64,000 bases of DNA from Rhodothermales bacterium (lineage in GTDB: Bacteria; Bacteroidota; Rhodothermia; Rhodothermales; VXPQ01): positions 2,429,449-2,493,448 of the forward strand of contig OZ252093.1 of the NCBI GenBank assembly GCA_965248175.1, written 5' to 3'. The position numbers were made by a program, and so were the translations under genes. The notes under the pieces are model-generated. The model was not told the origin of the DNA and made no database searches. It saw only the letters and a program-made list of their open reading frames with translations. Shown in pieces: positions 3,304-59,872 of the stretch (position 1 is its first letter; each line of letters starts with the position of its first letter).

Positions 3304-3315
3304 CTATGCTGGCCG

Positions 3316-7734: not shown

Positions 7735-7767
7735 TAATCAATTTTACCAGTAAAAAGCTGTAACGCC

Positions 7768-8694: not shown

Positions 8695-8752
8695 GTCAGA
8701 TGGGGCGAATGGGGAAAATGAACCGGGAATGCCGGACAGGCCGCGACGGCAA

Positions 8753-10268: not shown

Positions 10269-10292
10269 ACCGGCAGCGTTCTAAAATCTCCG

Positions 10293-10328
10293 TATCTTTA
10301 GCATATTCCCTATCTTTAGCATATTCCC
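10293..10328. repeat. 18-bp perfect tandem duplication (tatctttagcatattccc x2) upstream of protease copy 1
   Basis: 10293-10310 equals 10311-10328. Each unit carries TATCTTTA, close to the Bacteroidetes -7 box TAnnTTTG. Confidence 0.9.
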
Positions 10329-10390
10329 TGGTCTGGAAAATAGCATGGTGACAGGGCATCCGGCATCAGCCGTTCAATGCACATCTCGTC

Positions 10391-12463: not shown

Positions 12464-12490
12464 ACCTCACATCCTTCCTTACCCATATCC

Positions 12491-13555: not shown

Positions 13556-13679
13556 TGCGGCGTCTCGTATCTATATCTGCGAATTTCTTCCCCGCCCGAT
13601 CATGCCGTATCTTCAGTAGACACCCTGCTTCAGAGAATAGCATGGTGCAAAGGCATCGCCGTTCAACACACATCTTCTT

Positions 13680-15404: not shown

Positions 15405-15431
15405 ATCGCAAACAGGCGATCGCCCCGTATC

Positions 15432-16226: not shown

Positions 16227-16331
16227 CTTCAGGAATTGTTTTCGGGTCTTCTTTTACAGGGCGAACGACCGGCCCTAATATCAGAACCGGCCGCCCAGCG
16301 GCGTCACAGCGCCGCAGCAGCTGCTCCATGG

Positions 16332-17255: not shown

Positions 17256-17428
17256 TTTATACGTCGCAAAGGCGACTGTTTTGTGGGAATGGGGTGGACA
17301 GGCAGAAAAACAAAGGCGAATACAACGCGCAGTAGCACGCTCGCGGAATCTCCGCAAACGCGCCACAGACACAAGACCGCAGCAAAAGATACGACAGGGA
17401 GAGGAATGCGGCTACATTGCGCGTCCGG

Positions 17429-18988: not shown

Positions 18989-19045
18989 GGTCGGACAACT
19001 TCTGGGACGGACGGCGACGTACAGGAACGGTTCATGCCTGCGCTA

Positions 19046-19945: not shown

Positions 19946-19958
19946 GGTAAAAACAGAA

Positions 19959-40402: not shown

Positions 40403-40409
40403 GAACTTG

Positions 40410-41381: not shown

Positions 41382-41443
41382 GTAAACCTTTGCCTTATAT
41401 TAAAGAACATAACACCTTGTAAGAGAACGGGTTATGCAACGAA

Positions 41444-42913: not shown

Positions 42914-42941
42914 GTACTTCTGATCCCTTGCAAACTCCCGT

Positions 42942-47474: not shown

Positions 47475-47498
47475 AATGCCTCGGTACTGCGTCCTTCT

Positions 47499-49136
47499 TC
47501 AATCCTGCTGAACGAGGGTTTCCTTCATGGAGTGGATCGGCTTGGCGCCTTCTCGCATCAACGCATACCGGATACCGTCTGCGATAGCCTGCCAACTTGC
47601 TTCCAGAATGTTGATGGAAACGCCTACCGTATTCCATGTCTCGTTCCCGTTCTTATGCTCAACGAGCACGCGGACATACGCCGCCGTGCCGTCTTCGGGG
47701 CTCACCACACGCACCTTGTAATCGGCGAGATGCACCTGTTCGAGACTCGGATAAAAGGCGATCAACACGCCGCGCAATGCGTTCGACAGGGCATCTACCG
47801 GCCCCACGCCTTCGGCCACGAGCAATTCCCTTCGGCCATCAACGCGAAGCGCTACCGTCGCTTGGGTGGCATCTGCACCCGCATCGCTGAGCTCACTCTG
47901 GACCCGGAGTCGTTCCAGAGAAAAGAACTCTGCTTCCTCGCCTTGAATCTGCCGGAGCAGTAATTCGAACGAAGCTTCGGCGCCCTCGAATTCGTACCCG
48001 AGATGCTCAAGGTCCTTGATGCGCTTTACGGCGCGTGCCGCCTCGTCTGCTTTGCCCAGGTTAAGGCCCAGCTCCTTTGCCTTGTAGCGTACGTTGCTGC
48101 GCCCGGATAAATCAGACACGAGCACCCGGCGCTTGTTGCCGACCTGTTCGGGCATGAGATGCTCGTAGGCTGCCGGCTCCTTCATCACCGCCGACACATG
48201 GATGCCGCCTTTGTGGGCGAATGCGCTCCGACCCACATACGCCGACCGCCCCACCGGGTCGAGGTTCGCCACCTCGTATACGAAATGTGAGAGATCCGTG
48301 AGTTCACGCATTCTATCCGGCGCAACACACGCGTATCCGAGTTTGAGCTGGAGTCCCGGGACAATCGCGGTCAGATCCGCGTTGCCACAGCGTTCTCCGA
48401 TGCCATTGATCGTCCCCTGCACATGCCGGGCGCCGGCCTGCACCGCTATGATCGAATTGGCCGCAGCACATCCGGAGTCATTGTGCGCATGAATGCCGAG
48501 CCCTGCTTCGAATCGGCCCGCTACATCCCCCACGATCCGGCCCAGCGTGCCGGGCAGCGTGCCTCCGTTCGTATCGCACAGGGCCAACACGTCCGCACCC
48601 GCCGAAGCAGCGGCCTCCAGTGTTTCCAGCGCATAGACCCGGTCGTTCAGGTACCCGTCGAAAAAATGCTCTGCATCGTACACCACATGCTTGCCGTGCG
48701 CCTTCAGGTACTCTACGGACGAGCGGATCAGCTCAAGGTTTTCCTCCCTGGTTACGCCCAGGGCCACTTCCACATGGAGCATCCAGCTTTTGCCGAAGAG
48801 GGAAACCACCGGGGTTTCCGCCGCCAGCATGGCCTGCAGATTGGGATCGTCCTCCGGAGCGTACTGTACGCGGCGCGTGGAGCCAAAAGCACAGATGCGC
48901 GCCTGCACCCAATCCACGTCCCGCGCCAATTCGAAAAATTCCTGGTCTTTCGGATTCGAACCGGGCCAGCCCCCCTCGATGATGCCAATGCCGAAGTGAT
49001 CAAGACGTTTTGCGATCCGCAACTTGTCGCGGGCTGTCAGTGAAACGTGCTCGCCCTGTGTACCATCGCGAAGCGTGGTGTCGAAGAGCTCCACAAGGAC
49101 CGGTTCGTCGGCATGTTCTGGCATGAAGGTATCCAT
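47499..49136 (-). CDS. cimA: citramalate synthase (LeuA-family, CimA-type)
   Basis: ELFDTTLRDGTQGEHVSLT...IIEGGWPGSNPKD N-terminus and a LeuA-dimer C-terminal regulatory domain. Distinct from the leuA further upstream in the same operon. Confidence 0.8.
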   Translation of the reverse strand: MDTFMPEHADEPVLVELFDTTLRDGTQGEHVSLTARDKLRIAKRLDHFGIGIIEGGWPGSNPKDQEFFELARDVDWVQARICAFGSTRRVQYAPEDDPNLQAMLAAETPVVSLFGKSWMLHVEVALGVTREENLELIRSSVEYLKAHGKHVVYDAEHFFDGYLNDRVYALETLEAAASAGADVLALCDTNGGTLPGTLGRIVGDVAGRFEAGLGIHAHNDSGCAAANSIIAVQAGARHVQGTINGIGERCGNADLTAIVPGLQLKLGYACVAPDRMRELTDLSHFVYEVANLDPVGRSAYVGRSAFAHKGGIHVSAVMKEPAAYEHLMPEQVGNKRRVLVSDLSGRSNVRYKAKELGLNLGKADEAARAVKRIKDLEHLGYEFEGAEASFELLLRQIQGEEAEFFSLERLRVQSELSDAGADATQATVALRVDGRRELLVAEGVGPVDALSNALRGVLIAFYPSLEQVHLADYKVRVVSPEDGTAAYVRVLVEHKNGNETWNTVGVSINILEASWQAIADGIRYALMREGAKPIHSMKETLVQQD

Positions 49137-49209
49137 TTTGACTGCTGATTGCCCGTGGTGGTATCACTCATGGCGACAGCTCATAGCGGGCCACACCCTG
49201 TTCGATGCG

Positions 49210-49773
49210 TCAGGTCGGCATAAATCCAGCCTGTCTTGCGAATTCGAAGACATTGCCTGCTTTCAGTATCTCGGCCACATCCCCAAGCGGTTTGAGCAGA
49301 AATTCCTCTTCTGTCGTGCGGTTGGAAAGCTTGCCGAGCGTCGTATCGATTTCGAGGAGATCGCCCGTACGCACACGCTCGACCAGTCGCTCGATCGACT
49401 CGAATGGAACGATAAACCCTCCGTCCACCGCATTGCGGTAAAAGATGCGGGCGTAGCTTTCAGCCACAACGGCAGTGCATCCGGCTTCCTGCAACGCAAA
49501 CGGGGCATGCTCCCGCGAAGACCCGCACCCGAAGTTCGAACCGCCCACCACGATCGTATAGGCGCTCCGAAATGTATCATCCTCGGTAAACGGCCGGGTC
49601 CCGTAAGGAAGTCCTTGCTGACCCTGCGGCACGCCACTGAGCGCATAGCGCCCGTAATACTTGCGTTCTTCCGGGTCGGACAGACTGTATACCAGGTGCT
49701 CCGCCGGGATGATTTGATCCGTATCGATGGCGTCCCCTACTACGTAGGCCGCCCCCTTGATCGTCTTGTTCAT
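49210..49773 (-). CDS. leuD: 3-isopropylmalate dehydratase small subunit
   Basis: Start reset to MNKTIKGAAYVVGDAIDTDQIIP. GSNFGCGSSREHAP. ATGA overlap with the leuC stop. Confidence 0.93.
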   Translation of the reverse strand: MNKTIKGAAYVVGDAIDTDQIIPAEHLVYSLSDPEERKYYGRYALSGVPQGQQGLPYGTRPFTEDDTFRSAYTIVVGGSNFGCGSSREHAPFALQEAGCTAVVAESYARIFYRNAVDGGFIVPFESIERLVERVRTGDLLEIDTTLGKLSNRTTEEEFLLKPLGDVAEILKAGNVFEFARQAGFMPT

Positions 49774-51062
49774 ACCAGCACCTCGCGAGGATCCGTAATG
49801 ACTCCGGAAAGCGCCGAGGCCGCCACCGTGAAGGGAGACGCCAGATACACCGAAGCGTTCTTGCTGCCCATGCGTCCGGGAAAGTTCCGATTCGTGGTGG
49901 AGATCACGACTTCCGTGCCGTGTGTCCTCCCAAACGTGTCTGACGGTCCGCCGAGGCACGCTGCGCAGGAAGCCTGACCGAGTTTGCAACCGGATCGTTC
50001 GAAGATATCGTACAACGTGTCGCCTTCGACACTCGTCGTGTGTAACTGCTTGCCGATCCAGGTCGTCGCCGGCACGATGTAGGTGTCGATGACCACCTCT
50101 TGCCCCCGCAGGATGCCCGCCACCGCCACGAAATCCTCCAGCTTACCGCCGGTGCAACTACCGACGTACGCACGATCCAGGCGCGTCCCGGCAACTTCCG
50201 ACACCGTCGCCCGGTTGTCCGGGCTGTGCGGCTTCGCCACAAGCGGTTCGATGTCCTCAACGCGGTAGGTTTTGAGCGTATGATACCGGGAATCCTGATC
50301 ACCGTAGACGGGCTCAAACTCCCTATCGGTGCGCGCCCGTACATACTCGAAGGTTTTTTCGTCGGCAGGAATGATCCCGTTCTTCCCCCCCGCTTCGATC
50401 GCCATGTTCGTCAACGTCATGCGCTCGTGGACCGGCAGATCGTAGACAGCTTCTCCGTCGAATTCGAGAGCGCGGTATGTACCCCCATCCGTTCCGATGT
50501 CGCCGATGACCTGCAGGATGAGGTCCTTCGCCATCAGGTACGGCGGGAGAGACCCCTCGAACACGAATCGCATCGTTTCGGGGACCTTGAGCCAGAGCTT
50601 ACCGGTGCCCATGATCAATGCGGCGTCCGTGTTGCCCACCCCGGTCGAGAACATGCCAAATGCACCGGAAGTGCACGTGTGACTGTCCGTACCGATCAGC
50701 AGCGAACCCGGCAGGTTGAACCCTTCCTCGGCCAGCGCCATGTGGCATACGCCCTTGTAGCTCGGCGTACCCGGATCATAGTAATACGGGAGATCGTGCT
50801 CAGCGGCAAAGGCCCGGAGCAAGTCCACATTCCGGTTCGCGTGGTGGTTCTTCGTAAAGATGTAGTGATCGGGAATGATCACCAGTTTCTCCTTGTCCCA
50901 CGGCGCCGCATCGGCTCCGAATTCACGGCGGAAGATATCGATGGTCGGGGGGCCGCACACATCGTGCGTCATGAGAATGTCCACATCCACCCAGATGTTA
51001 TCCCCGGGCGCCACCCGATCCCGACCTGCGTGCCGCGCCAGTATTTTCTCTGTAATCGTCAT
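49770..51062 (-). CDS. leuC: 3-isopropylmalate dehydratase large subunit
   Basis: Aconitase-family blocks DHYIF, GTDSHT and Cys ligands (GSCTGG, SCAACLGG). 430 aa. Confidence 0.95.
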   Translation of the reverse strand: MTITEKILARHAGRDRVAPGDNIWVDVDILMTHDVCGPPTIDIFRREFGADAAPWDKEKLVIIPDHYIFTKNHHANRNVDLLRAFAAEHDLPYYYDPGTPSYKGVCHMALAEEGFNLPGSLLIGTDSHTCTSGAFGMFSTGVGNTDAALIMGTGKLWLKVPETMRFVFEGSLPPYLMAKDLILQVIGDIGTDGGTYRALEFDGEAVYDLPVHERMTLTNMAIEAGGKNGIIPADEKTFEYVRARTDREFEPVYGDQDSRYHTLKTYRVEDIEPLVAKPHSPDNRATVSEVAGTRLDRAYVGSCTGGKLEDFVAVAGILRGQEVVIDTYIVPATTWIGKQLHTTSVEGDTLYDIFERSGCKLGQASCAACLGGPSDTFGRTHGTEVVISTTNRNFPGRMGSKNASVYLASPFTVAASALSGVITDPREVLV

Positions 51063-52669
51063 GCTACGCCTCCCTCGAACGAACTCATGATGCCATTGCC
51101 GACAAAGGTCATGTTCTCCTCGTCGGATCGCCAGGTTTCCAGATTGTTGAGCGCATCGATGTAGGCATCCGCAGATGCACGAATCACATCCGTATTTTGC
51201 GCCTGCCCCCTGAAAAAGGCCCCGCTCTCCCGGATGAGCACCGTCACTTCGCCAATGGCGCCGGCCCCTTCGGTAACGGATCGAATAGAGTAGCTCTCCA
51301 GGTTGTGCGAACTGCCGAGCGCATGATTGATGGCCCGATACACAGCATCCACAGGGCCGTCGCCCGTCCCCTGCGCGGTCAACCGCTCCTCAACAGGAAC
51401 ATTGAACACCTCCACCTCTGCCTTCGGCTGCTTGCCGGTGGCAACCGTAACGTACAGGTTATCGAGCCGGTAATGCTGTAAAACCGCATGCTCCGCATTC
51501 CCATGCACAAGGTGAATCAGATCCGCATCGTGGATTTCTTTCTTGCGATCCGCAAGGCGAACAAACAACTGGTAGACAACATCCTTGCGGGAATCCTCGA
51601 CATGCAGACCCATCCGCTTCAGACGGCTGAAAAAGCCGTGGCGTCCGGAATGTCGCCCCAAACGTATTTGTTCGCTCGTCTGGCCCACATCCTCCGCCTG
51701 CATGATTTCGTAGGTATCCCGGCGCTTCAGCACCCCATGCTGGTGAATGCCGGCTTCGTGGCTAAAGGCGTTGCGCCCCACAATAGCCTTGTTCGGCGGC
51801 ACCGGAAATCCCGTCGCCACCGACACCAGGCGACTTGTTTCCGTAAGGTGCGTGGCCTCAATGTCTGTGTCGACGCCGAATTGCTCGAGCCGAACACGCA
51901 GCGCCATCACTACTTCCTCCAGCGCGGCATTACCGGCCCGCTCGCCAATGCCGTTGATCGTACATTCGATCTGCCGTGCGCCCGTACACACGGCGGCGAT
52001 GGAATTGGCCACGGCTAAGCCGAGGTCGTCGTGACAGTGGGTCGAGAGCACAACATCCTTCGTCGATCGTACGCCCTTGCGAACGGTCTCGAACATGCGC
52101 GCATACTCGGTGGGTGTGCAATAGCCGGTCGTATCCGGAATGTTGATGGTGGTAGCGCCCTCCTCGATCGCCGCTGCAATCACCTCGCAAAGGAAACCGT
52201 GATCCGTGCGCCCCGCGTCCTCTGCGCTGAACTCTATATCGTCGGTATACGTCCGCGCCAGTTGCACGGCTTCGCGAGCCATCCGCACGACGCTCTGGCG
52301 TTTCTCGGGCAACGTCTTCCCGTACTTGTTGCTGCCAAACTTTGCATCTATGTGAATGTCGCTGGTGGCGATGAACGTATGAATCCGCGTGCGTTTCCCT
52401 CCGATCAGCGACTTGCCGGCGGCATGCACATCGTCTTCGAGTGCACGGGCAAGCGCGCAGATCACGGGGCCCTGCACGTCGCGCACGATGCTCGCCACGG
52501 CCTCGAACTGGGCCGGAGACGAAATCGGAAAGCCGGCTTCGATCACACCCACGTTCAGTTTTACGAGTTGCCGGGCGATGCGGACCTTCTCATGGATCGT
52601 CATGGACGCTCCCGGCGCTTGCTCGCCGTCACGCAACGTCGTATCGAATATGGTTACTTTGTCTTTCAT
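51059..52669 (-). CDS. leuA: 2-isopropylmalate synthase
   Basis: IFDTTLRDGEQAPG, HCHDDLGLAVANS and a C-terminal LeuA allosteric domain. Confidence 0.93.
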   Translation of the reverse strand: MKDKVTIFDTTLRDGEQAPGASMTIHEKVRIARQLVKLNVGVIEAGFPISSPAQFEAVASIVRDVQGPVICALARALEDDVHAAGKSLIGGKRTRIHTFIATSDIHIDAKFGSNKYGKTLPEKRQSVVRMAREAVQLARTYTDDIEFSAEDAGRTDHGFLCEVIAAAIEEGATTINIPDTTGYCTPTEYARMFETVRKGVRSTKDVVLSTHCHDDLGLAVANSIAAVCTGARQIECTINGIGERAGNAALEEVVMALRVRLEQFGVDTDIEATHLTETSRLVSVATGFPVPPNKAIVGRNAFSHEAGIHQHGVLKRRDTYEIMQAEDVGQTSEQIRLGRHSGRHGFFSRLKRMGLHVEDSRKDVVYQLFVRLADRKKEIHDADLIHLVHGNAEHAVLQHYRLDNLYVTVATGKQPKAEVEVFNVPVEERLTAQGTGDGPVDAVYRAINHALGSSHNLESYSIRSVTEGAGAIGEVTVLIRESGAFFRGQAQNTDVIRASADAYIDALNNLETWRSDEENMTFVGNGIMSSFEGGVA

Positions 52670-52824
52670 TGGAGGGGTTCCTCGACTGTTCCTTTACAAG
52701 TGGTGCGTAGGGGCTATCGCATGCGCCCGATGCGTCAACGACAAGAAGTCGTCCCGCCCATGATGCGCCGGGCGCCTTGTAAGTCGAAGAAAATCAAGAT
52801 GGTCAATCCGTACAATGCGGCGTG

Positions 52825-53946
52825 TCATGCGGCCACCTCCACCTTCTGCTCCTTGCTCGCAGTCTGCCGTACATGGTCGGCAATGCACGCACCCATCTCT
52901 TCGGTGGACACGAGCCTGCAACCCTCTTCCTGCATATCGGCCGTTCGTACGCCCCCCAAAAAGGTCTCACTCACGGCCCTGCGAATTGCCGTTGCCGCAT
53001 CCGCCTCGCCCAGTTCCTCAAGCATCATGGCGGCGCTGAGCACAGCGGCCACGGGATTAGCCTTCCCTTCGCCAGCAATGTCGGGGGCACTGCCGTGCAC
53101 CGGCTCGAACAACCCTACGGCACCGCCTACCGAAGCCGACGGCAACACGCCGAGCGAACCCGGCAACGTCGCTGCCAGATCGGAGAGAATATCGCCGAAC
53201 AGATTCGCTGTCACCACCACATCGAAGTCCGATGGGCGTCGCACGATCTGCATGGCGGCGTTGTCGATATACAAATGCTCCAGTTCTATGTCGGGATAGC
53301 CGGCGCTATGCACCTGTGTCACGACATCGTTCCACAGTTGGGATACCTCCAGTACGTTGGCCTTATCCACCGACGTGACTCGTCTGCGACGACGACGCGC
53401 CCAGGTAAACGCCACATGAGCGATACGCTCGATTTCCGCCGCCGAGTAACGCATCGTGTTAAGGGCTTCCTTGCCCTGTGTGCCCTCGACCAGCCCCTTC
53501 GGCTCTGCGAAATAAATTCCGCCGGTCAGTTCGCGCACGATCATCATATCCGTGCCCGCAACAACCTCCCGCCTGAGGGGCGAAGCACCCGCCAGAAAAT
53601 CCGGCACAGTCACCGGACGCAGGTTCGCATACACGCCAAGCGTCTTGCGCAAACCCAGCAGGCCAGCCTCCGGACGCAGGTCGCCATGAAGATCATCCCA
53701 GGCAGGCCCTCCAACGGCCCCAAGCAACACGGCATCCGACTCGAGGCAGGCTATTGCCGTAGCTTCCGGTAATGGCGTACCGAACGCATCGATGGCACTG
53801 CCCCCTATGAAAAATTCCTCGGACGCGACGGCGAACCCAAACCGCTCACCCGCCTCCGCAAGGATACGGAGCGCTTCACGGGTAACTTCCGGCCCGACGC
53901 CGTCGCCCGGCAAACAGGCGATGCGGTATGTCCTCTTGCCAGTCAA
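52825..53946 (-). CDS. leuB: 3-isopropylmalate dehydrogenase
   Basis: IACLPGDGVGPEV, NLFGDILSD. Confidence 0.96.
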   Translation of the reverse strand: MTGKRTYRIACLPGDGVGPEVTREALRILAEAGERFGFAVASEEFFIGGSAIDAFGTPLPEATAIACLESDAVLLGAVGGPAWDDLHGDLRPEAGLLGLRKTLGVYANLRPVTVPDFLAGASPLRREVVAGTDMMIVRELTGGIYFAEPKGLVEGTQGKEALNTMRYSAAEIERIAHVAFTWARRRRRRVTSVDKANVLEVSQLWNDVVTQVHSAGYPDIELEHLYIDNAAMQIVRRPSDFDVVVTANLFGDILSDLAATLPGSLGVLPSASVGGAVGLFEPVHGSAPDIAGEGKANPVAAVLSAAMMLEELGEADAATAIRRAVSETFLGGVRTADMQEEGCRLVSTEEMGACIADHVRQTASKEQKVEVAA

Positions 53947-53948
53947 GT

Positions 53949-54965
53949 CTATACGGCTTTCGCTTCCTCTTGTTGTTCACCGCGCAGCCAACTCATCATG
54001 CTGCGCAGCCGCTTACCGATCTGTTCGATCGGATGCTCCCTGGACCTGCCGCGCAAGGCAAGCAGCTGCTTGCCCCCGGCTTTATTCTCGGCAATCCATT
54101 CTTTTGCAAACGTTCCATCCTGTATTTCGACAAGAATCTGCCGCATGCGCTCGCGAACCGAGTCATCAATGAGCCGCGGGCCGCGTGTGTAATTACCGTA
54201 CTCGGCCGTATCGCTGATCGAGTAGTTCATGTATTCCAGCCCGCCGTCGTAAATCAGATCGACAATGAGCTTGAGTTCGTGCAGGCACTCGAAATACGCC
54301 AGTTCGGGGGGATACCCGGCTTCGGTCAGCGTTTCGAACCCGGCCTTGATGAGTTCTTCGGCGCCGCCGCAGAGTACAGCCTGTTCCCCGAAGAGGTCGG
54401 TTTCCGTCTCATCCTTGAAGGTTGTTTCGATGACCCCTGCCCGGATGCCGCCTATGCCTTCCGCATAACTCAGCGCCATATCCAGTGCAGCGCCCGAAGC
54501 GTCCTGCGCAACAGCCACCAGACAAGGCACTCCCTTGCCTTCCTCGAATACGCGGCGCGCCAGATGGCCCGGCGATTTGGGAGCCACCATGAACACATCG
54601 ACACCTTCCGGCGGCGTGATCTGCCCATAGTGAATGTTGAACCCGTGCCCGAAAACCAGGGACTTGCCCGGCGTCATATGCTCGGCCATGTGGGCCTCGT
54701 ACACCTGCTTCTGATGCTGATCCGGCACCAGCATCACAACCAGATCACCCCATGCAGTCGCTTCGGAAATGCTCATGACGCGCAGGCCTTTTTCGGCGGC
54801 TTCCGCGCGCGAGGAAGAACCCTCGCGCAGCCCGACCGCCACGTCGACGCCGCTGTCATGCAGGTTCAGGGCATGAGCATGTCCCTGGCTTCCGTATCCT
54901 ATAACGGCTACACGCCGAGACCGGACGAGATCGGGATTGGCCCGATAGTGAACGTTAACTCCCAT
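53949..54965 (-). CDS. ilvC: ketol-acid reductoisomerase (class I)
   Basis: Start reset to MGVNVHY.... [17 protein letters not shown]. Confidence 0.95.
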
Positions 54966-55030
54966 TTGTGTGATATTTTCGTTTGCAGGTGGTATGTGCG
55001 GGCCGCTTGCGACCCTTGCGAAAAACCGGC

Positions 55031-55609
55031 TCAATCGCCGAAAAGCAGCGCTCGTTTCATGGCCACGCGGCCACTCCGCGCAACTTCCTCAATGCCGTAG
55101 CGGTGCATCATCCCGACGAAGGCATTGATTTTCCTGGTGGGTCCGGCGATTTCGAAGGTCATCGTGTCCGTTGTGATATCCACGACCTTACCATGGAAAA
55201 TCTTGAGCGTGTCAAGTAGTTCAACACGGTTGTCAGAGGTATACCCGATCTTCAGCAAGCACAACTCGCGCTCGACGTACTCCTCTGATGTTAAATCCTC
55301 CACCTCCAGCACATCGATCAACCGGTTCAATTGACGGTTCACCTGGGAAATGGTGCGGTCTTCCCCCGTTGTGACAATGGTCATCCGGGAAACCGAGGAC
55401 TCATCCGTTTTCCCGACCGTCACGCTTTCGAGACTGAAGCCGCGGGCAGAGAACAAATTGATGACGCGGTTCAGCGCCCCAAGCGAATTCTCGAGCAAAA
55501 CGGCAATGATATGCCGGTGGCGGTGCGTTTTCTCGCCCGGCCCGATGGGTTCCCCTTGGCCCTTCTTCCGGATAATCTGTTGCGGGGTCAGTGTGTCGTG
55601 CTCACTCAT
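55031..55609 (-). CDS. ilvN: acetolactate synthase small (regulatory) subunit
   Basis: ACT domain [31 protein letters not shown]. Confidence 0.92.
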
Positions 55610-55633
55610 GGCGACTTCCTTATGGAATTTTCG

Positions 55634-57394
55634 TCATACGAAGGCGTCAGGCGTCAGGCGCTTCGTGATCATTTCGCTGGTGGAGGCGCCCGCAGGCACC
55701 ATCGGGAACACCATTTCCTCCTTGGTGACACGAAATTCCATCACAGCCGGGCGATCAGTGACGGCCCATGCCTTCCGGATAATCTCGTCGACTTCGTCCG
55801 GGGTCTCCGCTCGCAGGCCTACGCAGTGATGCGCCTCCGCAAGCTTGACGAAATCCGGATTTGTATCGGACAGATCGGTATGGCTGAAGCGCTCATTGTG
55901 GAACAATTCCTGCCATTGCCGCACCATGCCCAGAAAATTATTGTTTATGATGACCACCTTGATCGGCAGCCCGTGCGCGGCGGCGACGCATAGTTCCTGC
56001 GCATTCATGATGAAGCCACCATCACCGCTGATCGAAACAACCGTCTTGTCAGGCCTGCCGAAGGCGGCGCCCATTGCTGCAGGCAAACTAAAACCCATCG
56101 TGCCAAGACCACCCGACGTAATGTGCGTGCGCGGATGCAAGAACTGAAAATACTGAGCCGCCCACATCTGATGCTGGCCCACATCCGTCACTATGATCGC
56201 TTCCCCCTGCGTATGGCGCCGAAGGCGCTCGAGTACATACTGTGCACGGAGGCACCTGTCGGCCTGATCATACATCAGCGGGCATTCCTCTTTCCATGCT
56301 TCCACCTGTTCGAGCCATTCCCCGGTATTACACGGCTCAATTAGAGGCTCGAGACGCGTGAGTGCATCGAGAACATCCCCAATAATGGCGCAATCCACAT
56401 AAACATTCTTGGAGACCGAAGACGGATCGATATCGATATGGATGATCTTCGCATGCGGCGCCCAGGATTCGAGCTTACCCGTTACCCGATCGTCAAACCG
56501 TGCCCCGACAGCGATCAATAGATCGGAGTGCTGCACCGCCATGTTGGCGTACCATGTGCCATGCATACCCAGCATACCCACCGAAAGCTCGTCGTTCTCG
56601 GGAAACGCTCCGAGTCCGTGGAGGGTGGTTGTGACCGGAATGCGCGCCTTGCGGGCAATCCGGGTCAATACGTCCGCCCCATTCGAATTGATTGCCCCGC
56701 CGCCCACATAGAAAAGAGGCTTCTTCGCCTCAGCAATCATGGCCGCGGCGCGACGGATTTTGGCTTCATCGCCCTTGTCTTTGAAGCGATAGCCGCGCAG
56801 GTTGATTTCCTTCGGGTATTCGAATTCGGTTTCGGCCAGAAGCACGTCCTTGGGCAAATCCACGACGACAGGGCCAGGCCGCCCCGTGCGGGCAATGTAA
56901 TAGGCCTTTTTCACAGCCGAGGCCAAATCCCGCACATCGCACACCAGGAAGCTATGCTTCGTGATACTGCGGGTGATGCCGATCGTATCGCACTCCTGAA
57001 ACGCGTCGTTCCCGATGAGTTGGGTCGGCACTTGCCCGGTGAAAACAACAATGGGCACCGAATCCATATACGCGTCCGCAATGCCGGTAACCGTGTTGGT
57101 GGCGCCGGGCCCGCTGGTTACAAGCACCGTACCCACCTTACCGGTTGCCTTTGCGTATCCCTCGGCAGCGTGGGCGCCGCCTTGCTCATGCCGCACCAGC
57201 ACATGCTTGAATTTCGGCTGGATGCGAGCCATCTCATCATAGATTTTGATGACGGCCCCCCCAGGGTAACCGAACACCACCTCTACGCCCTCTGCATCCA
57301 GCGAACGCAGAAAAATCTCCGCACCGCTCATGCGTTGTGCGCCGTTAACCGACGACGCATGTTGCGGTATACTGTTTCCTTGCATATCAGGCAT
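55634..57394 (-). CDS. ilvB: acetolactate synthase large subunit
   Basis: ThDP enzyme: SGAEIFLRSLDAEGVEVVFGYPGG and GLGTMGFSLPAAMGA...SGDGGF. Start at MPDMQG (57394) or at the Met of MSGAEIF. Confidence 0.95.
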   Translation of the reverse strand: MPDMQGNSIPQHASSVNGAQRMSGAEIFLRSLDAEGVEVVFGYPGGAVIKIYDEMARIQPKFKHVLVRHEQGGAHAAEGYAKATGKVGTVLVTSGPGATNTVTGIADAYMDSVPIVVFTGQVPTQLIGNDAFQECDTIGITRSITKHSFLVCDVRDLASAVKKAYYIARTGRPGPVVVDLPKDVLLAETEFEYPKEINLRGYRFKDKGDEAKIRRAAAMIAEAKKPLFYVGGGAINSNGADVLTRIARKARIPVTTTLHGLGAFPENDELSVGMLGMHGTWYANMAVQHSDLLIAVGARFDDRVTGKLESWAPHAKIIHIDIDPSSVSKNVYVDCAIIGDVLDALTRLEPLIEPCNTGEWLEQVEAWKEECPLMYDQADRCLRAQYVLERLRRHTQGEAIIVTDVGQHQMWAAQYFQFLHPRTHITSGGLGTMGFSLPAAMGAAFGRPDKTVVSISGDGGFIMNAQELCVAAAHGLPIKVVIINNNFLGMVRQWQELFHNERFSHTDLSDTNPDFVKLAEAHHCVGLRAETPDEVDEIIRKAWAVTDRPAVMEFRVTKEEMVFPMVPAGASTSEMITKRLTPDAFV

Positions 57395-57649
57395 TGATCC
57401 CGACCGGTTTTTTTCCTTCGTTATTTGGCGCTCCAACGAGCGGCTCGCACAATGCGCAGGCCATGCACAAGTAACAAGCCATACGGATAGACTTGTTAAA
57501 ATACGAACCACTGGCTTCAGCGTTCAGGTACGTTTCTGTGAGGGAGTACATGGGCATCTTGTTAACGTGCGGCGTGAAGGCCAATCCTTCACTGCCCGAT
57601 TGATGCCATCATGCATACTGGAGAAGTGCGAAGGATCGGCCGGTCCCGG
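57395..57649 (-). promoter_or_regulatory. about 255-nt leader between the leader-peptide stop and ilvB, with mutually exclusive pairing segments
   Basis: In transcript sense, CCUUCGCAC (57626-57634), GUGAAGG (57586-57592) and CCUUCAC (57574-57580) can pair 1:2 or 2:3. I could not identify a clean terminator hairpin with a U-run. Confidence 0.35.
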
Positions 57650-57793
57650 CTAAACCGTAATAATAATGAGACCGAGGAGGAGAACAACCGACGCAAACCG
57701 CCCGTCGGCAACGCATGCCGTTCCCCGCAGGACACGACAAATGTCCTTGCCTGTGCGCCGAAGCGCTATCTGTTTGCGGGAGTGTTGCGTCAT
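57650..57793 (-). CDS. candidate ilv-leu leader peptide (47 aa) ending VVLLLGLIIITV
   Basis: Below the ORF-track size cutoff. My translation from cat 57791-57793: MTQHSRKQIALRRTGKDICRVLRGTACVADGRFASVVLLLGLIIITV*. Ten of the last 12 codons are Val/Leu/Ile. Confidence 0.5.
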   Translation of the reverse strand: MTQHSRKQIALRRTGKDICRVLRGTACVADGRFASVVLLLGLIIITV

Positions 57794-58331
57794 GGTCCGA
57801 GCCATAGTTGGTCTGCCCTTATGCCTTTCCTATTCGTAAACGTATATACGCTCTCTGTCATCAAACGATCCGTCACGGGAGCGATACGCCGAACGGAGCA
57901 TTACCGGATAAAACAGGGCAACTAACGCTACAGTCTATATAATAACGCAATTTCGGACGAACCTATCAAGTGAAAAACAGGATGTTTTGCAAGTTATTCA
58001 TTACGAAAACACTCGCCCTTGTGGCTTCACAAACACTTCATGCCCTCTAATGGGCTAAAAAAGCGCTTTTTTTCAAAACAGGGCTTTTCGGAAAGAGGTT
58101 TTATGCGATCATCTATTGAAGTATTGGGTGATTATTGTCTAATTTAATAAGGTGTTTTGCAGGATTTCTTCACTTATCAGTAAAAATGACGTCGCTTGCC
58201 AAGAACTCGCTCCGGGCATGTGGTCTGGCGTTGTTCCCTGCGCATTGCCCTGAAAGTCGGGGAGCAGACGGCCCCTCGCCGAGCACTCTGTACCCGGACA
58301 GCATCATAAACAACCACACTGGTTATCCGTC

Positions 58332-59015
58332 ATGAAGAAACTTCTTACCATCCTCTCTCTGGTGTTCGCCCTTTCCTGGTCCCTGCCCGCGTCCGCGCAG
58401 GAATTCAGCTTCGGCGCCGATATCGTAAGCCGTTATGTATGGAGGGGCATCGATTTCGGTGAATCCGCCAGCGTCCAGCCCTCGCTCACTTTGAGTTCCG
58501 GCGGACTGGAGATAGGAACCTGGGCATCGTATGCCACGAACCCCGGTTCGGCCGGCTCTAACGAACACGACCTGTGGATCGGTTATTCCGCCGGCGCCTT
58601 CTCTGTGGGCATCACGGACTACTATTTCCCGAACGGTGGCGTCGAGTTCTCCAACTTTGATGGCGACGGTGAGGGAGCACACGTGATCGAACCCTATTTC
58701 TCGTTCGGAGGCACGGATTCTTTTCCAGTGACACTCTATGCCGCATACAACGCCTACAACGACCCGGATAATTCGCTGTATATCAATGCATCGATGCCCT
58801 TCGCCGTAGGCGGAATGGAGATGTCGTTCGGAATCGGCGCTTCGGCAGGCGAGAGTGCGTGGTACTTGACCGAGGGATTCAGCATCATTGACATGGTGCT
58901 TGGCGCCTCGAAGAGCATTCCGATCACAGACAAGTTCGAGTTACCCGTAAGTATCTCGTACATACTGAATCCCACAGAAGACAAGAGCTTCCTCGTTTTT
59001 GGAATCTCCCTGTAG
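58332..59015 (+). CDS. TorF-family putative outer-membrane porin (Gcw_chp beta-barrel)
   Basis: Signal peptide MKKLLTILSLVFALSWSLPASAQ. SRYVWRGIDFGESASVQPSLTL..GLEIGTWASY matches the family pattern. Confidence 0.7.
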   Translation: MKKLLTILSLVFALSWSLPASAQEFSFGADIVSRYVWRGIDFGESASVQPSLTLSSGGLEIGTWASYATNPGSAGSNEHDLWIGYSAGAFSVGITDYYFPNGGVEFSNFDGDGEGAHVIEPYFSFGGTDSFPVTLYAAYNAYNDPDNSLYINASMPFAVGGMEMSFGIGASAGESAWYLTEGFSIIDMVLGASKSIPITDKFELPVSISYILNPTEDKSFLVFGISL

Positions 59016-59173
59016 TCCGTGCGGAAGTCCTCGCTGTCCAGGCAGGTTATCGCGAGGAAAAAACAGAAGCGCCCCGGCCCTTGTACAGGCGTCGGGGCCC
59101 TTCATTATTTCTCGGGATACGGGAAGTCACTGCCTGCAACCCGCTGACCTATCCCCGATCTGCTTCCGTTCCC

Positions 59174-59872
59174 TTACGCCAGCCCTTCGTACTGTTTGGA
59201 AAGGCGCTGGAGCATTGCGCGGGTCCGCATCGCGCCGGCGCTTTCCCGCCGCATATCCGCAACAAGTCGTTTCAGATCGTCGAACGTATCCACATCGTAC
59301 CATTCCGGAAGCGTCTGCAACGAGGCGCCGCATGAGGCAACGCGGGCGGTGGTCTGTTCGAAAACAGCCCCGTGGCTGTAGGTCATCCCTTCGAAAATCT
59401 CCGGAAACGATTCGTTCATGCCGATCAGATAAAACCCTCCGTCTCCGGTGGGACCGAGCACCACGGCGCCCTGCGCTTCGAGGAAAGCAAAACCCTCCTT
59501 TATCCATGCGGAAGGCAGCGTGGGGTGATCTGTCCCTATCAGGATAACACGGCGGCGCCCTGCGGCGAACGTTTCTCCGAAAGCCTGCTTCATACGCTCC
59601 CCGAGGCCCTCCCCCCTTTGGCGAAATACGTTCCCGGTCCATTGGGGGAAAATATCCCCACGCCGGATTGCTATGCCCGTCCCCGGCGGCGGCTCGTCAA
59701 GCGCCAGGTACAGACGAAGCGTTACCCCGAGGTCCTGGTACTGATCCAATGCATCCTGCAGAAAAGCTCCGTAGAGACGGGCAGCGTCCTCCGGGGAAAG
59801 CGGCGGCGTCAGGCGGGTTTTGACCCGGCCGGGAACCGGAGGTTTTGCAAACACAATAAGGGCAGCGCTCAT
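59174..59872 (-). CDS. DUF2064 / TIGR04282-type glycosyltransferase-like protein
   Basis: ALIVFAKPPVPGRVKTRLTPPLSPEDAARLYGAFLQD is the typical N-terminus. Confidence 0.75.
   Translation of the reverse strand: MSAALIVFAKPPVPGRVKTRLTPPLSPEDAARLYGAFLQDALDQYQDLGVTLRLYLALDEPPPGTGIAIRRGDIFPQWTGNVFRQRGEGLGERMKQAFGETFAAGRRRVILIGTDHPTLPSAWIKEGFAFLEAQGAVVLGPTGDGGFYLIGMNESFPEIFEGMTYSHGAVFEQTTARVASCGASLQTLPEWYDVDTFDDLKRLVADMRRESAGAMRTRAMLQRLSKQYEGLA

What the first reader, a model, noticed from the sequence alone, without database searches (positions are those of the whole stretch)
57395..57793. 47-codon leader ORF ending VVLLLGLIIITV upstream of ilvBNC-leu: candidate ribosome-mediated attenuator
Seen:
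- A reverse-strand ORF (57793 to 57650) ends with ten Val/Leu/Ile codons in its last twelve (GTT GTT CTC CTC CTC GGT CTC ATT ATT ATT ACG GTT TAG). It ends about 255 nt before the ilvB start.
- The regulatory codons lie within a possible CGGUC...GACCG hairpin.
- Downstream, the segments CCUUCGCAC, GUGAAGG and CCUUCAC can pair alternatively.

Established knowledge: branched-chain amino acid operons in proteobacteria are controlled by leader peptides rich in the cognate codons. Comparative work, as I recall it, predicted similar attenuators in a few Bacteroidetes/Chlorobi genomes.

Inference: BCAA-sensing attenuation of a roughly 10-20 kb operon.

Caveats: the peptide is longer than classical leaders, and I could not see a canonical terminator with a U-tract.
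Basis: partly seen in the sequence, partly recalled or inferred. Interest (0 to 1): 0.65.

Follow-up and report, generated by a model that had tools for sequence, protein, structure and literature searches.

The report
Branched-chain amino acid leader-peptide RNA switch
A short gene packed with valine, leucine and isoleucine codons sits in front of the ilvB-leu operon next to a conserved two-state RNA switch, a known kind of amino-acid sensor but an undescribed family that seems to hide a start codon rather than stop transcription.

Summary
A 47-codon minus-strand ORF (57793-57650) ends VVLLLGLIIITV. It is the only 12-codon stretch with at least 10 V/L/I in all six frames of the 64 kb.

The ORF and the switch recur upstream of ilvB, or of ilvD-ilvB, in at least 34 loci of Rhodothermota, Ignavibacteriota and Calditrichota. 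Both alternative pairings, A:B and B:C, are kept by compensating changes. Rfam, Pfam and NCBIfam hold no match, and I found no paper describing it.

It is almost certainly a ribosome-sensed leader-peptide attenuator. However, no member has a hairpin with a U-tract after C.

Instead, the B:C state nests inside a helix (P1) that buries the start codons of a second ORF (ORF2, 57557-57387). ORF2 ends at the ilvB start and appears to be a relic of ilvD. In Rhodothermus the equivalent helix covers the ilvB Shine-Dalgarno sequence.

The best reading is translational attenuation relayed to ilvB by coupling or polarity. This output step is inferred, not shown. It is a new variant of a known kind.

The parts
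57939..57969 (-). Predicted promoter: TTGATA (57969-57964), 19-nt spacer, TATTAT (57944-57939). The predicted transcription start is near 57932.
   Evidence: Read from the sequence. The block is conserved in L001 as TTGCTT-19-TATTAT. Rhodothermus loci have TTGACA-17-TTAATT at the same relative place. An RNA contig of run X2 ends at 57926 and no RNA contig covers 57940-58700. This is an inference; the start was not mapped.
57650..57793 (-). Leader ORF1: 47 codons, MTQHSRKQIALRRTGKDICRVLRGTACVADGRFASVVLLLGLIIITV, stop TAG 57652-57650. An alternative ATG lies at 57805.
   Evidence: Homologous ORFs occur in at least 34 loci. There is an in-frame 3-nt indel relative to L001. Strain variants are F>L and V>L, and a 1-nt deletion at 57797 breaks the 57805 frame.
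57653..57688 (-). Regulatory codon run: V V L L L G L I I I T V (3 Val, 4 Leu, 3 Ile).
   Evidence: Unique in the 64 kb, with a Markov expectation of 0.05. Over 28 loci, V+L+I make up 70% of the last 16 residues, with Ala 3.6%, Phe 0.9% and no Met, Trp, Tyr or Cys.
57688..57708 (-). H1: hairpin inside ORF1 just before the run (CCGACG 57708-57703 paired with CGUCGG 57693-57688).
   Evidence: Read from the sequence. L001 has CCGGCG/CGCCGG, a compensatory change. Clade A2 has hairpins of different sequence at the same place. Its role is unknown; it may be a pause hairpin.
57641..57674 (-). H2: hairpin enclosing the last codons and the stop (CGGUCUC 57674-57668 paired with GGGACCG 57647-57641).
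   Evidence: It is kept in L198, L001 and L197 through one-sided changes. Clades A2 and B have UUAGCC/GGCUAA over the stop codon instead.
57628..57641 (-). Segment A (the '2' of a classical attenuator): GGCCGAUCCUUCGC, starting 11 nt after the first base of the stop codon.
   Evidence: The A:B duplex is -27.4 kcal/mol. Covariation over 28 loci is shown. The distance from stop to A is 7-13 nt in all 28 loci.
57602..57615 (-). P1 5' strand: UGCAUG (57615-57610) and GGCAUC (57607-57602). It lies in the loop closed by A:B.
57579..57592 (-). Segment B ('3'): GUGAAGGAUUGGCC. It pairs either with A or with C.
57571..57580 (-). Segment C ('4'): CCUUCAC (57580-57574) plus GCC (57573-57571). Together with B it forms the B:C hairpin, which has no U-tract after it.
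   Evidence: The three-way change CCUUC/GAAGG/CCUUC (window clade) versus CCCC/GGGG/CCCC (other clades) is seen.
57547..57558 (-). P1 3' strand: GAUGCC CAUGUA. It contains both AUGs of ORF2 (57557-57555 and 57551-57549).
   Evidence: P1 cells are 91.7% paired over 10 clade-A loci, against 30-51% for the whole P1 + B:C structure with partners slid. The spacer-to-start duplex has z = -1.6 in the window and -3.2 to -3.8 in L198, L001, L197 and L162.
57387..57557 (-). ORF2: 56 codons (MPMYSLTETYLN...GINA), stop UGA 57389-57387. The stop lies 5 nt after ilvB ATG 57394 and 1 nt before ATG 57385. It is a likely relic of ilvD, kept as a translational relay.
   Evidence: In all 11 clade-A loci ORF2 stops within -7 to +5 nt of the ilvB ATG, as an AUGA overlap in five of them. 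L200 carries an ilvD with an in-frame internal deletion at this position. Relatives have intact ilvD here. ORF2 has no Pfam hit.
57496..57525 (-). T2: weak hairpin GAACGCUG-AAGC-CAGUGGUUC followed by GUAUUUUAA, inside ORF2.
   Evidence: It is present only in the four window-clade loci, with compensatory changes. RNA contigs of three runs break at 57521-57533, while DNA contigs are continuous there. Its role is uncertain.
47499..57394 (-). Controlled operon: ilvB, ilvN, ilvC, leuB, leuA, leuC, leuD and a second LeuA/CimA-like gene. gltB (47474-42942) follows 24 nt later.
   Evidence: Pfam hits, ORF list and IlvB relatives.

Best explanation
This is a ribosome-sensed attenuator for branched-chain amino acids. 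It is built on a two-state RNA switch, and its output is most likely translational.

Anatomy (shown). The transcript starts near 57932. Ribosomes translate leader ORF1 (57793-57650), whose last 12 codons include 3 Val, 4 Leu and 3 Ile. Just after the stop lies segment A. It can pair with segment B about 50 nt downstream (the ON state). Alternatively B pairs with the adjacent segment C (the OFF state).

The B:C hairpin nests inside helix P1. The 3' strand of P1 contains both AUGs of a second ORF (ORF2, 57557-57387). ORF2 ends at the ilvB start codon.

Proposed logic (inferred).
- When charged Val-, Leu- or Ile-tRNA is scarce, the ribosome stalls inside the run. A stays free, so A:B forms as soon as B is transcribed. 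P1 and B:C are not built, and ORF2 is translated. Terminating ribosomes then re-initiate at ilvB and keep the mRNA covered.
- When the amino acids are plentiful, the ribosome runs to the stop codon, 11 nt before A. There it occludes or destabilises A while B and C emerge. B:C and P1 form and the ORF2 AUGs are buried. ilvB is then poorly translated, and the untranslated stretch is open to Rho, to the weak T2 hairpin or to RNases.

What is shown and what is not. Shown: the ORF, the segments, their conservation and covariation, near-equal energies of the two states, and the position of the start codons in P1. Inferred: stalling, the direction of the switch, coupling of ORF2 to ilvB, and any polarity.
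For: 1. The ORF is real and specific.
- The V/L/I run is unique in the 64 kb.
- Homologous leader ORFs with V/L/I-rich ends stand upstream of ilvB or ilvD-ilvB in at least 34 loci of three phyla.
- V+L+I make up 70% of the last 16 residues, with almost no Ala, Phe or Met.
- Changes preserve the frame: an in-frame 3-nt indel against L001 and F>L and V>L strain variants.

2. A:B.
- The duplex is -18.6 to -30.4 kcal/mol in 28 of 28 loci.
- On an alignment not fitted to the structure, 89.8% of cells pair, against 29-58% with partners slid. Five pairs show changes on both sides, and 0 of 500 shuffles reach the covariation score.
- Weak covariance-model hits L012 and L008 carry compensatory changes in the otherwise invariant core, and each has its own V/L/I leader ORF.

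3. B:C and P1 in the window's clade. 88.3% of cells pair, against 30-51% slid. B position 34 changes A to G together with its partners in both C and A.

4. Bistability. ON and OFF energies differ by at most 5 kcal/mol in 14 of 18 loci. The window gives ON -31.1 and OFF -27.2. Stepwise folding gives A:B as soon as B is made.

5. Ribosome geometry. The stop codon is 7-13 nt before A in 28 of 28 loci. In most clades a copy of B lies inside the ORF (GGGAUUGACC, encoding G-I-D; or GGGAUUAU, encoding G-I-I). It can pair with A as in a classical 1:2 helix (z down to -4.8).

6. Output.
- The spacer between A and B pairs with the start region of the first downstream cistron. This covers the ORF2 AUGs in all nine clade-A loci with a short ORF2, at z -1.0 to -3.8. 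It was not seen in L200. In L234 it covers the ilvD AUG, and in L248 an in-frame AUG six codons upstream of it. In the four Rhodothermus loci it covers the ilvB SD GAGG.
- ORF2 ends within -7 to +5 nt of the ilvB ATG in 11 of 11 clade-A loci, as an AUGA overlap in five.
- No U-tract follows C in any of the 28 loci examined in sequence.

7. RNA. Metatranscriptome contigs cover 57521-57926 but nothing in 57940-58700. Their depth in the leader is similar to that in ilvB: 5.7 against 3.9, 6.2 against 3.5-4.8, and 3.1 against 3.7-3.9.
Against: - There is no experiment. Stalling, the direction of switching and ORF2 translation are all inferred.
- A:B and P1 are not strictly exclusive by topology, because together they could form an H-type pseudoknot.
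- A ribosome at the stop codon would cover only about 2-4 nt of A in the window.
- The window clade lacks a significant 1:A partner inside the ORF (z -1.2 to +0.4). Its 'no translation' default is therefore unclear.
- That ORF2 stays open is not significant on its own in these G+C-rich sequences. Shuffles keep it open in 0.4-60% of trials.
- ORF2 has no recognisable SD.
- In the low-G+C Ignavibacteriota and Calditrichota the spacer-to-start duplex is mostly not better than shuffles (z between -2.6 and +1.1; five of seven loci lie between -1.2 and +1.1). The output there may differ.
- Canonical terminators are not enriched in this genome at all (18 found against 17.9 expected; 26 against 19.1). 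The missing U-tract is therefore weak evidence against a transcriptional output.
- The RNA data are assembled contigs at 3-6x depth, without strand information.
Confidence: 0.55

Rival explanations
1. The sensor and the A/B/C switch are the same, but the output is premature transcription termination. This would occur either at the P1 + B:C structure acting as a terminator without a U-tract, or by Rho acting on the C-rich, G-poor RNA downstream. In the window clade the weak T2 hairpin might help.
For: - The four-segment layout is that of classical attenuators.
- Hairpin-plus-U-tract terminators are not enriched in the 40 kb of this genome that I scanned. Termination here may generally be non-canonical or Rho-dependent.
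- RNA downstream of C in Rhodothermus is A/C-rich and G-poor.
- T2 (57525-57496) is conserved in the window clade with compensatory changes.
- RNA contigs of three runs end or begin at 57521-57533, although DNA contigs are continuous there.
Against: - No U-tract follows C in the 28 loci examined, including the A+T-rich Ignavibacteriota, where one would be cheap to evolve.
- T2 is weak (-7.6 to -9.8 kcal/mol) and absent from the sister clade.
- RNA contig depth in the leader and in ilvB is similar, although contig depth is a poor measure.
- The model does not explain why the helix around B:C always ends on a start codon or an SD. It also does not explain why ORF2 ends at the ilvB ATG.
Confidence: 0.3
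2. The conserved RNA is a binding site for a trans-acting factor, that is a protein, a tRNA or a small ligand, as in riboswitches or T-boxes. The V/L/I-rich ORF would be secondary or not translated.
For: - The cores of A (GGUCAAUCC) and B (GGAUUGRCC) are nearly invariant across three phyla. That is more sequence conservation than simple helices usually show.
- For the actinobacterial LEU element, a leader ORF with cognate codons was reported not to act by classical attenuation, and a protein factor was proposed (PMC1262725).
Against: - The invariance has a simpler explanation. Up to four mutually complementary segments (1, A, B, C) must change together.
- There is no conserved unpaired pocket. 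The A-to-B spacer varies from 17 to 48 nt and is not conserved between clades.
- The ORF stays open, its end keeps 10-14 V/L/I of 16 residues in every locus, and the stop-to-A distance is fixed at 7-13 nt. None of these is needed for a factor-binding RNA.
- No Rfam family matches.
Confidence: 0.07
3. ORF1 encodes a small hydrophobic (membrane) peptide with a function of its own. On this view its position before ilvB is incidental and the hairpins are ordinary mRNA structure.
For: In Ignavibacteriota and Calditrichota the hydrophobic end is 20-24 residues long, which is the length of a transmembrane helix.
Against: - In the window the run is only 12 residues.
- The composition is almost purely L, I and V plus G and S. 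Ala is 3.6%, Phe 0.9%, and Met, Trp, Tyr and Cys are absent, unlike membrane helices.
- The N-terminal parts are not conserved between clades.
- The ORF is always immediately upstream of the branched-chain amino acid operon.
- Conserved 'peptide motifs' such as G-I-D-L coincide with RNA segments complementary to A.
- There is no Pfam or NCBIfam match.
Confidence: 0.03

Closest known systems
Classical ribosome-mediated transcription attenuators of enterobacterial ilvGMEDA (IlvL), ilvBN (IvbL) and leu (LeuL) operons. This comparison rests on established knowledge.
   Same: Both have a short leader ORF with a mixed run of Val, Leu and Ile codons in front of branched-chain amino acid genes. Both have successive, mutually exclusive helices (1:2, 2:3, 3:4). 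In both, the stop codon lies close enough to segment 2 for a terminating ribosome to block it.
   Different: Helix 3:4 (B:C) is not followed by a U-tract in any of the 28 loci examined. The leader is longer, at 47 codons in the window and about 31-35 in Rhodothermus. There is no sequence relationship: Rfam, Pfam and NCBIfam give no hit. The OFF state additionally buries a start codon.
Cysteine-responsive poly-Cys leaderless short ORFs of mycobacteria (bioRxiv 10.1101/834739, read)
   Same: An amino-acid-sensing upstream ORF is involved. [quoted passage not shown] More distal genes follow by polarity. That paper excludes transcription termination for its case.
   Different: The amino acid and the phylum differ. 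The mycobacterial ORF is leaderless and pairs directly with the SD. Here a three-segment relay (A/B/C plus P1) is interposed. In the window the sequestered start belongs to a relic ORF (ORF2) rather than to the enzyme gene. Nothing has been tested experimentally here.
Actinobacterial leader peptides without terminators, and the ilvB leaders and uORF of Corynebacterium (PMC1262725, read; PMC10272879 and PMC11857589, seen by title and abstract only)
   Same: These are leader ORFs with cognate codons upstream of ilvB, leuA or cys genes, outside Proteobacteria and Firmicutes. For some of them no terminator is evident, and translational or Rho-dependent outputs were proposed.
   Different: The sequences and structures are unrelated. 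The Corynebacterium ilvBNC leader is modelled with a terminator hairpin. The family found here is confined, as far as searched, to Rhodothermota, Ignavibacteriota and Calditrichota.
Antibiotic-sensing translational attenuation (ermC, cat). This comparison rests on established knowledge, as summarised.
   Same: A ribosome stalled in a leader ORF re-folds the mRNA so that a hidden initiation region becomes accessible.
   Different: The signal there is a drug-bound ribosome and a specific nascent peptide. Here the presumed signal is the supply of charged tRNA for Val, Leu and Ile.

Membership tests
Classical ribosome-mediated transcription attenuator (trp/his/leu/ilv type) | Short translated leader ORF with a run of codons for the pathway's end products | tested here: met
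   Ten of the last 12 codons are V/L/I, a run unique in the 64 kb. The ORF is conserved in at least 34 loci upstream of ilv genes. Translation itself has not been shown.
Classical ribosome-mediated transcription attenuator (trp/his/leu/ilv type) | Mutually exclusive helices 2:3 (antiterminator) and 3:4 | tested here: met
   A:B and B:C share segment B. A:B covaries in 28 loci and B:C in 10 clade-A loci. The two states are near iso-energetic.
Classical ribosome-mediated transcription attenuator (trp/his/leu/ilv type) | Helix 3:4 is an intrinsic terminator: a G+C-rich hairpin directly followed by a U-tract | tested here: not met
   No U-tract follows C in the window or in any of the 28 loci examined. 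The only hairpin with a U-run (T2) lies about 50 nt further on, is weak, and is limited to one clade.
Classical ribosome-mediated transcription attenuator (trp/his/leu/ilv type) | Leader stop codon close to segment 2, so that a terminating ribosome blocks 2:3 | tested here: met
   The distance from stop to A is 11 nt in the window and 7-13 nt in all 28 loci. In the window only about 2-4 nt of A would be covered, so the effect is plausible but marginal.
Classical ribosome-mediated transcription attenuator (trp/his/leu/ilv type) | Segment 1 within the ORF pairs with segment 2 when the leader is not being translated | tested here: inconclusive
   This holds in most clades: GGGAUUGACC or GGGAUGACC inside the ORF is complementary to A (z -2.0 to -4.8 in 12 of the 24 loci outside the window clade). 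It is not significant in the window clade (z -1.2 to +0.4).
Classical ribosome-mediated transcription attenuator (trp/his/leu/ilv type) | Read-through that depends on the amino acid supply | not testable with these tools
   Only assembled metatranscriptome contigs at 3-6x depth from unknown conditions are available.
Translational attenuation by a sensory upstream ORF (erm/cat type; mycobacterial poly-Cys ORFs) | An mRNA structure sequesters the initiation region of the next cistron in the default or replete state | tested here: met
   This is a computational result. P1 pairs 57615-57602 with 57558-57547, which holds both ORF2 AUGs. P1 cells are 91.7% paired over 10 loci. The equivalent helix covers the ilvD AUG in L234, an in-frame AUG six codons upstream of it in L248, and the ilvB SD in Rhodothermus.
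Translational attenuation by a sensory upstream ORF (erm/cat type; mycobacterial poly-Cys ORFs) | The sequestered initiation region is that of the regulated gene itself | tested here: inconclusive
   In the window it belongs to ORF2, not to ilvB. The link to ilvB rests on ORF2 ending within -7 to +5 nt of the ilvB ATG in 11 of 11 clade-A loci. Coupling has not been shown.
Translational attenuation by a sensory upstream ORF (erm/cat type; mycobacterial poly-Cys ORFs) | A ribosome stalled in the sensory ORF releases the initiation region | not testable with these tools
   This needs toeprinting, ribosome profiling or reporter assays.
Described RNA and peptide families (Rfam leaders such as Leu_leader; Pfam and NCBIfam leader peptides IlvL, IvbL, LeuL) | A score above the family threshold | tested here: not met
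   An Rfam 15 scan of 56900-58700 at E up to 10 gave only two chance-level hits on the opposite strand. Thirteen related loci gave only SAM riboswitches and a tRNA. Four leader peptides gave no Pfam or NCBIfam hit at E up to 10.

The most novel reading that the evidence does not exclude
This may be an ancient RNA switch, nearly invariant in sequence and made of up to four mutually complementary segments. It would be shared by Rhodothermota, Ignavibacteriota and Calditrichota. It would read the supply of Val, Leu and Ile through a leader peptide and control the initiation of translation rather than the termination of transcription. In the window's lineage ilvD was lost from the operon, but its start and end were kept as a 56-codon relic ORF.
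Probability: 0.4. Interest if true: 0.72.

Novelty: new variant of a known kind. Interest (0 to 1): 0.62.

Why it matters
Leader-peptide attenuation is a textbook mechanism, but it has been worked out almost entirely in Proteobacteria, Firmicutes and Actinobacteria, and with intrinsic terminators.

Here a single, easily recognised switch governs the main branched-chain amino acid operon in three little-studied phyla. Its signature is GGUCAAUCCC ... GGGAUUGACC placed behind a V/L/I-rich ORF. It is absent from Rfam, Pfam and NCBIfam.

Possible consequences:
- Annotation. It offers an RNA family and a small-ORF family that current pipelines miss.
- Mechanism. It is a natural test case for how attenuation works in bacteria that lack canonical terminators, since its output may be translational.
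- Evolution. It may be an example of a decayed gene kept only as a translational relay.

Several carriers are cultivable, namely Rhodothermus marinus, Caldithrix abyssi and Melioribacter relatives, so the model can be tested directly.

Tried and rejected
- Rfam scans of the window region and of 13 related loci found nothing relevant.
- I tested T2 (57525-57496) as the terminator and rejected it as the general effector. It is weak and confined to the window clade.
- Genome-wide terminator enrichment was meant to calibrate the 'no U-tract' argument. No enrichment was found, so that argument is weak in both directions.
- BLASTP of ORF2 against IlvD gave nothing significant for the window clade (E at least 1). 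The best is a 7-residue VSYFTKS/YSYFVTS match in L001. Only L200 is clearly an ilvD remnant.
- A shuffle test of ORF2 openness was not significant per sequence (0.4-60%). I therefore rest the ORF2 case on its end position in 11 of 11 loci, not on its length.
- A search for a 1:A partner in the window clade gave nothing significant.
- The spacer-to-start duplex in Ignavibacteriota and Calditrichota is mostly not better than shuffles.
- Short V/L/I-ended ORFs in the stretch held upstream of ilvB were absent in L003, L004, L081, L169, L015 (Chlorobaculum) and others, so the element is not universal. Where ilvD precedes ilvB, the region upstream of ilvD may lie outside the locus.
- Most non-Rhodothermales, non-Ignavibacteriota and non-Calditrichota pattern hits were chance matches with no ilv gene nearby.
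Full report
**1. What is at the coordinates**

On the minus strand an ORF runs from ATG 57793 to TAG 57652-57650. It has 47 codons: MTQHSRKQIALRRTGKDICRVLRGTACVADGRFASVVLLLGLIIITV. An in-frame ATG at 57805 would add four residues.

A minor strain variant seen in DNA contigs has a 1-nt deletion at 57797, between the two ATGs. The closest relatives L001 and L197 lack the extension. I therefore take 57793 as the start.

ilvB starts at 57394, not 57395. A second ATG at 57385 is the one gene callers use, giving the 583-aa proteins. [quoted passage not shown]

The run of 10 V/L/I in 12 codons is the only one in all six frames of the 64-kb window. Twenty first-order Markov simulations gave a mean of 0.05.

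Downstream lie ilvB, ilvN, ilvC, leuB, leuA, leuC, leuD and a second LeuA/CimA-like gene, followed by gltB. Upstream, on the other strand, is a Gcw_chp family gene (58332-59015), which leaves a 940-nt intergenic region.

**2. Organism and relatives**

IlvB places the window in an uncultured Rhodothermales lineage. The best species-representative genome is L001 at 89% identity, and a Rhodothermus MAG (L002) is at 75%. Many near-identical proteins exist in metagenome assemblies.

I collected loci around IlvB relatives of graded identity and by two DNA patterns.

**3. The leader ORF is conserved**

Three Rhodothermales clades carry a homologous ORF directly upstream of ilvB.
- Clade A1: window, L198, L001, L197. 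The ORF ends ...VVLLLGLIIITV, ...VVFVLPGLVIITI and similar.
- Clade A2: L161, L182, L227, L162, L163, L164, L205, L200. The ORF ends ...LLISLILITG.
- Clade B, Rhodothermus: L002, L165, L167, L185. The ORF is MTAWVQQ...LLLLSLLVLLISLIG, about 31-35 codons.

Against L001 the ORF differs by an in-frame 3-nt indel. Strain variants in the window population are F>L and V>L.

The same ORF type, ending ...GIIIISLLISILLIG and the like, stands upstream of ilvD-ilvB-ilvN-ilvC-leuB-leuA in other groups:
- other Rhodothermales: L207, L212, L219, L234, L248, L028;
- Ignavibacteriota: L211, L230, L263, L246, L260, L012, L008;
- Calditrichota: L202 (Caldithrix abyssi), L209, L006.

Over 28 loci, V+L+I are 70% of the last 16 residues. 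Ala is 3.6%, Phe 0.9%, and Met, Trp, Tyr and Cys are absent. That composition fits regulatory codons, not a membrane helix.

The element is not universal. The stretch held upstream of ilvB in several Rhodothermales (L003, L004, L081, L169) and in a Chlorobaculum locus (L015) has no short ORF with a V/L/I-rich end.

**4. The RNA switch**

Directly after the stop codon lies segment A. It reads GGCCGAUCCUUCGC in the window (57641-57628) and GGUCAAUCCC elsewhere. About 50 nt further lies segment B, GUGAAGGAUUGGCC (57592-57579), or GGGAUUGACC elsewhere.

*A:B.* The A:B duplex is -18.6 to -30.4 kcal/mol in all 28 loci. The part beyond the invariant core differs in sequence from clade to clade but stays complementary.

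I tested this on a MAFFT alignment that was not fitted to any structure. There 89.8% of cells pair, against 29-58% when partners are slid by 1-3 columns. Five pairs change on both sides, and no shuffle out of 500 reaches the covariation score.

A covariance model built on this helix found further loci. The weak hits L012 and L008 have compensatory changes in the core: GGUC/GACC becomes CCGC/G(A)CGG, and C:G becomes U:A. Each also has its own V/L/I leader ORF. This is independent confirmation.

In the ten clade-A loci the seven inner B:C pairs are almost always formed. Position 34 of B changes A to G together with its partner in C (AU:4, GC:6) and with its partner in A. This three-way covariation is what two alternative helices sharing one strand predict.

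*Energies.* ON (A:B) and OFF (B:C) energies differ by at most 5 kcal/mol in 14 of 18 loci. The window gives -31.1 and -27.2. When the transcript is folded in steps, A:B forms as soon as B exists.

**5. Relation to the ribosome**

The stop codon lies 7-13 nt before A in all 28 loci, and 11 nt in the window. This is the distance at which a terminating ribosome reaches the first bases of A.

In most clades a copy of B lies inside the ORF.
- In A2 it is GGGAUUGACC, encoding G-I-D-L.
- In Ignavibacteriota and Calditrichota it is GGGAUUAU, encoding G-I-I within the Ile run.
- In Rhodothermus it is GGGAUGACC, containing the leader's AUG.

This copy can pair with A like helix 1:2 of classical attenuators (z down to -4.8). 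The window clade has no significant partner of this kind.

**6. What the OFF state does**

No U-tract follows C in any of the 28 loci examined in sequence. Instead, B:C nests inside helix P1.

P1 forms between the A-to-B spacer (UGCAUG 57615-57610 and GGCAUC 57607-57602) and GAUGCC CAUGUA (57558-57547). Over ten clade-A loci 91.7% of P1 cells pair, with a G:C to C:G swap in L162.

The 3' strand of P1 holds two AUGs that open ORF2 (57557-57387, 56 codons).

In all 11 clade-A loci ORF2 ends within -7 to +5 nt of the ilvB ATG.
- In the window its UGA is 5 nt after ATG 57394 and 1 nt before ATG 57385.
- In L161, L182, L227, L163 and L164 the stop overlaps the start as AUGA.

Elsewhere the same kind of helix covers other start signals.
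- In L234 (ilvD first) it covers the ilvD AUG.
- In L248 it covers an AUG six codons upstream of the ilvD start and in frame with it. L207 has the same upstream AUG.
- In Rhodothermus, UCACAGGC after A pairs with GCCUGUGA, which abuts the ilvB SD GAGG (z -1.5 to -3.9).

The common denominator of the OFF state in Rhodothermales is therefore a buried initiation region.

In the low-G+C phyla this duplex is mostly not better than chance. There the leader codons for L-P-L-D (ACCUUCCUUUAGAUAU) are instead complementary to AUAUCUGAAGGU after the hairpin (read). I did not follow this up.

**7. ORF2 as a relic of ilvD**

Relatives have ilvD exactly where the window has ORF2. L200 has, at that place, an ORF whose residues 1-52 match the IlvD N-terminus (E 4.8e-21). 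Its residues 51-107 match the IlvD C-terminus (E down to 2.6e-16). It is therefore an ilvD with an in-frame internal deletion.

The window holds no ilvD. ORF2 has no significant similarity to IlvD and no Pfam hit.

That ORF2 is open is not significant by itself in this G+C-rich DNA. The case rests on where it starts (in P1) and where it ends (at the ilvB ATG) in every clade-A locus.

I infer that the start and end of ilvD were retained as a translational relay after the gene was lost from this position. This is an inference.

**8. Transcript evidence**

Four metatranscriptome runs hold the region, as assembled contigs only. The contigs cover 57521-57858, 57533-57926 and 57628-57858, plus parts of ilvB, at k-mer depths of 3-6. 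None covers 57940-58700.

The outer end, 57926, lies 6 nt inside the start I predict from a TTGATA-19-TATTAT promoter (57969-57939). That promoter is conserved in L001.

Contig depth is similar in the leader and in ilvB.

In three runs the contigs break at 57521-57533, the foot of hairpin T2. DNA contigs of four other runs cross that point without variation. This could be a processing site or the fall-off before a 3' end at T2. At this depth I cannot tell.

**9. Mechanism and rivals**

My best model is ribosome-sensed translational attenuation.
- A stall in the V/L/I run leaves A free, so A:B forms, the ORF2 AUGs stay open, and ilvB is translated by coupling.
- An unhindered run to the stop codon disturbs A, so B:C and P1 form, ORF2 is silent and ilvB is poorly expressed. 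Polarity may add to this.

The main rival keeps the same sensor but ends transcription, at a U-less terminator or through Rho. Canonical terminators are not enriched in this genome (18 against 17.9 expected and 26 against 19.1). The missing U-tract therefore cannot decide between the two.

The other rivals are weak: a factor-binding RNA, a functional hydrophobic peptide, or chance. The ORF, its composition, its fixed distance to A and the covariation all argue against them.

**10. Comparison with what is known**

In logic it is a member of the leader-peptide attenuators. It fails the defining terminator feature of the classical transcriptional family. It matches no described RNA or peptide family.

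The nearest demonstrated mechanism is the mycobacterial poly-Cys short ORF. That ORF frees a sequestered ribosome-binding site, with polarity on distal genes (10.1101/834739). Actinobacterial leaders without terminators are a further parallel (PMC1262725).

Literature searches found no paper that links Rhodothermus, or the Chlorobi in the search terms, to an ilv leader peptide or attenuator. From my own memory these belong to a 2004 comparative study, which I could not read here. It predates the genomes of all three phyla concerned.

**11. Verdict**

The finding is a new, widely conserved variant of a known mechanism. It has an unusual evolutionary twist, and the output step is unproven.

Noticed in passing
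window 57521-57533 (minus-strand transcript): Metatranscriptome contigs of three runs end or begin within this 13-nt stretch, at the 5' foot of hairpin T2. DNA contigs of four other runs are continuous and invariant there. It may be an RNA processing site or a coverage fall-off before a 3' end. Depth is only 3-6x.
   Followed up: partly
L200:1057-1456 (between leader and ilvB): A 133-codon ORF is an ilvD with an in-frame internal deletion: the N-terminal 52 residues are fused to about the last 55. It looks like an intermediate on the way to the short ORF2 of the window clade.
   Followed up: yes
L202, L209, L230, L260 (Calditrichota and Ignavibacteriota), leader codons L-P-L-D and the stretch after the B:C hairpin: The leader sequence ACCUUCCUUUAGAUAU is complementary to a conserved AUAUCUG(A/G)AGG about 10 nt after the B:C hairpin. 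This long-range helix would enclose the whole switch. It was read by eye and not tested statistically.
   Followed up: no
window 57857 and 57797; also 57649, 57683, 57688, 57697, 57699, 57771: Strain polymorphisms in the leader region: an 11-nt insertion (TTCATCAAGGT) behind 57857 in the 5' untranslated part, a 1-nt deletion at 57797, and SNPs that change F>L, R>Q and V>L in the leader peptide.
   Followed up: partly
window 1-20000 and 40001-60000: Hairpin-plus-U-tract terminator-like sites are no more frequent than in shuffled sequence (26 against 19.1 +/- 4.2; 18 against 17.9 +/- 4.3). This suggests the organism makes little use of canonical intrinsic terminators.
   Followed up: partly
window 47499-49136 and 42942-47474 (minus strand): After leuD the operon continues with a second LeuA-like gene (HMGL-like plus LeuA_dimer, about 30% identical to leuA, possibly citramalate synthase). 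Only 24 nt later comes the glutamate synthase large subunit gene.
   Followed up: no
L002, L165, L167, L185 (Rhodothermus), just upstream of the leader AUG: A further hairpin, CAUCCC...GGGAUG, includes the leader's own start codon. Five successive segments are therefore mutually complementary (0:1, 1:A, A:B, B:C). Leader translation itself may be gated.
   Followed up: no
L211:1763-1881, L230:2789-2905, L263:3933-4044: SAM riboswitches (Rfam RF00162, 74-82 bits) lie 0.5-0.6 kb from the ilv leader in three Melioribacteraceae loci. They are unrelated to the finding.
   Followed up: no
L005:2700-2830: A Rhodothermales locus has a degenerate copy of the switch (covariance-model E = 0.02). Its V/L/I frame (…SVDLLLLIFG) has no ATG, GTG or TTG start codon. 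It is possibly a decaying attenuator.
   Followed up: partly
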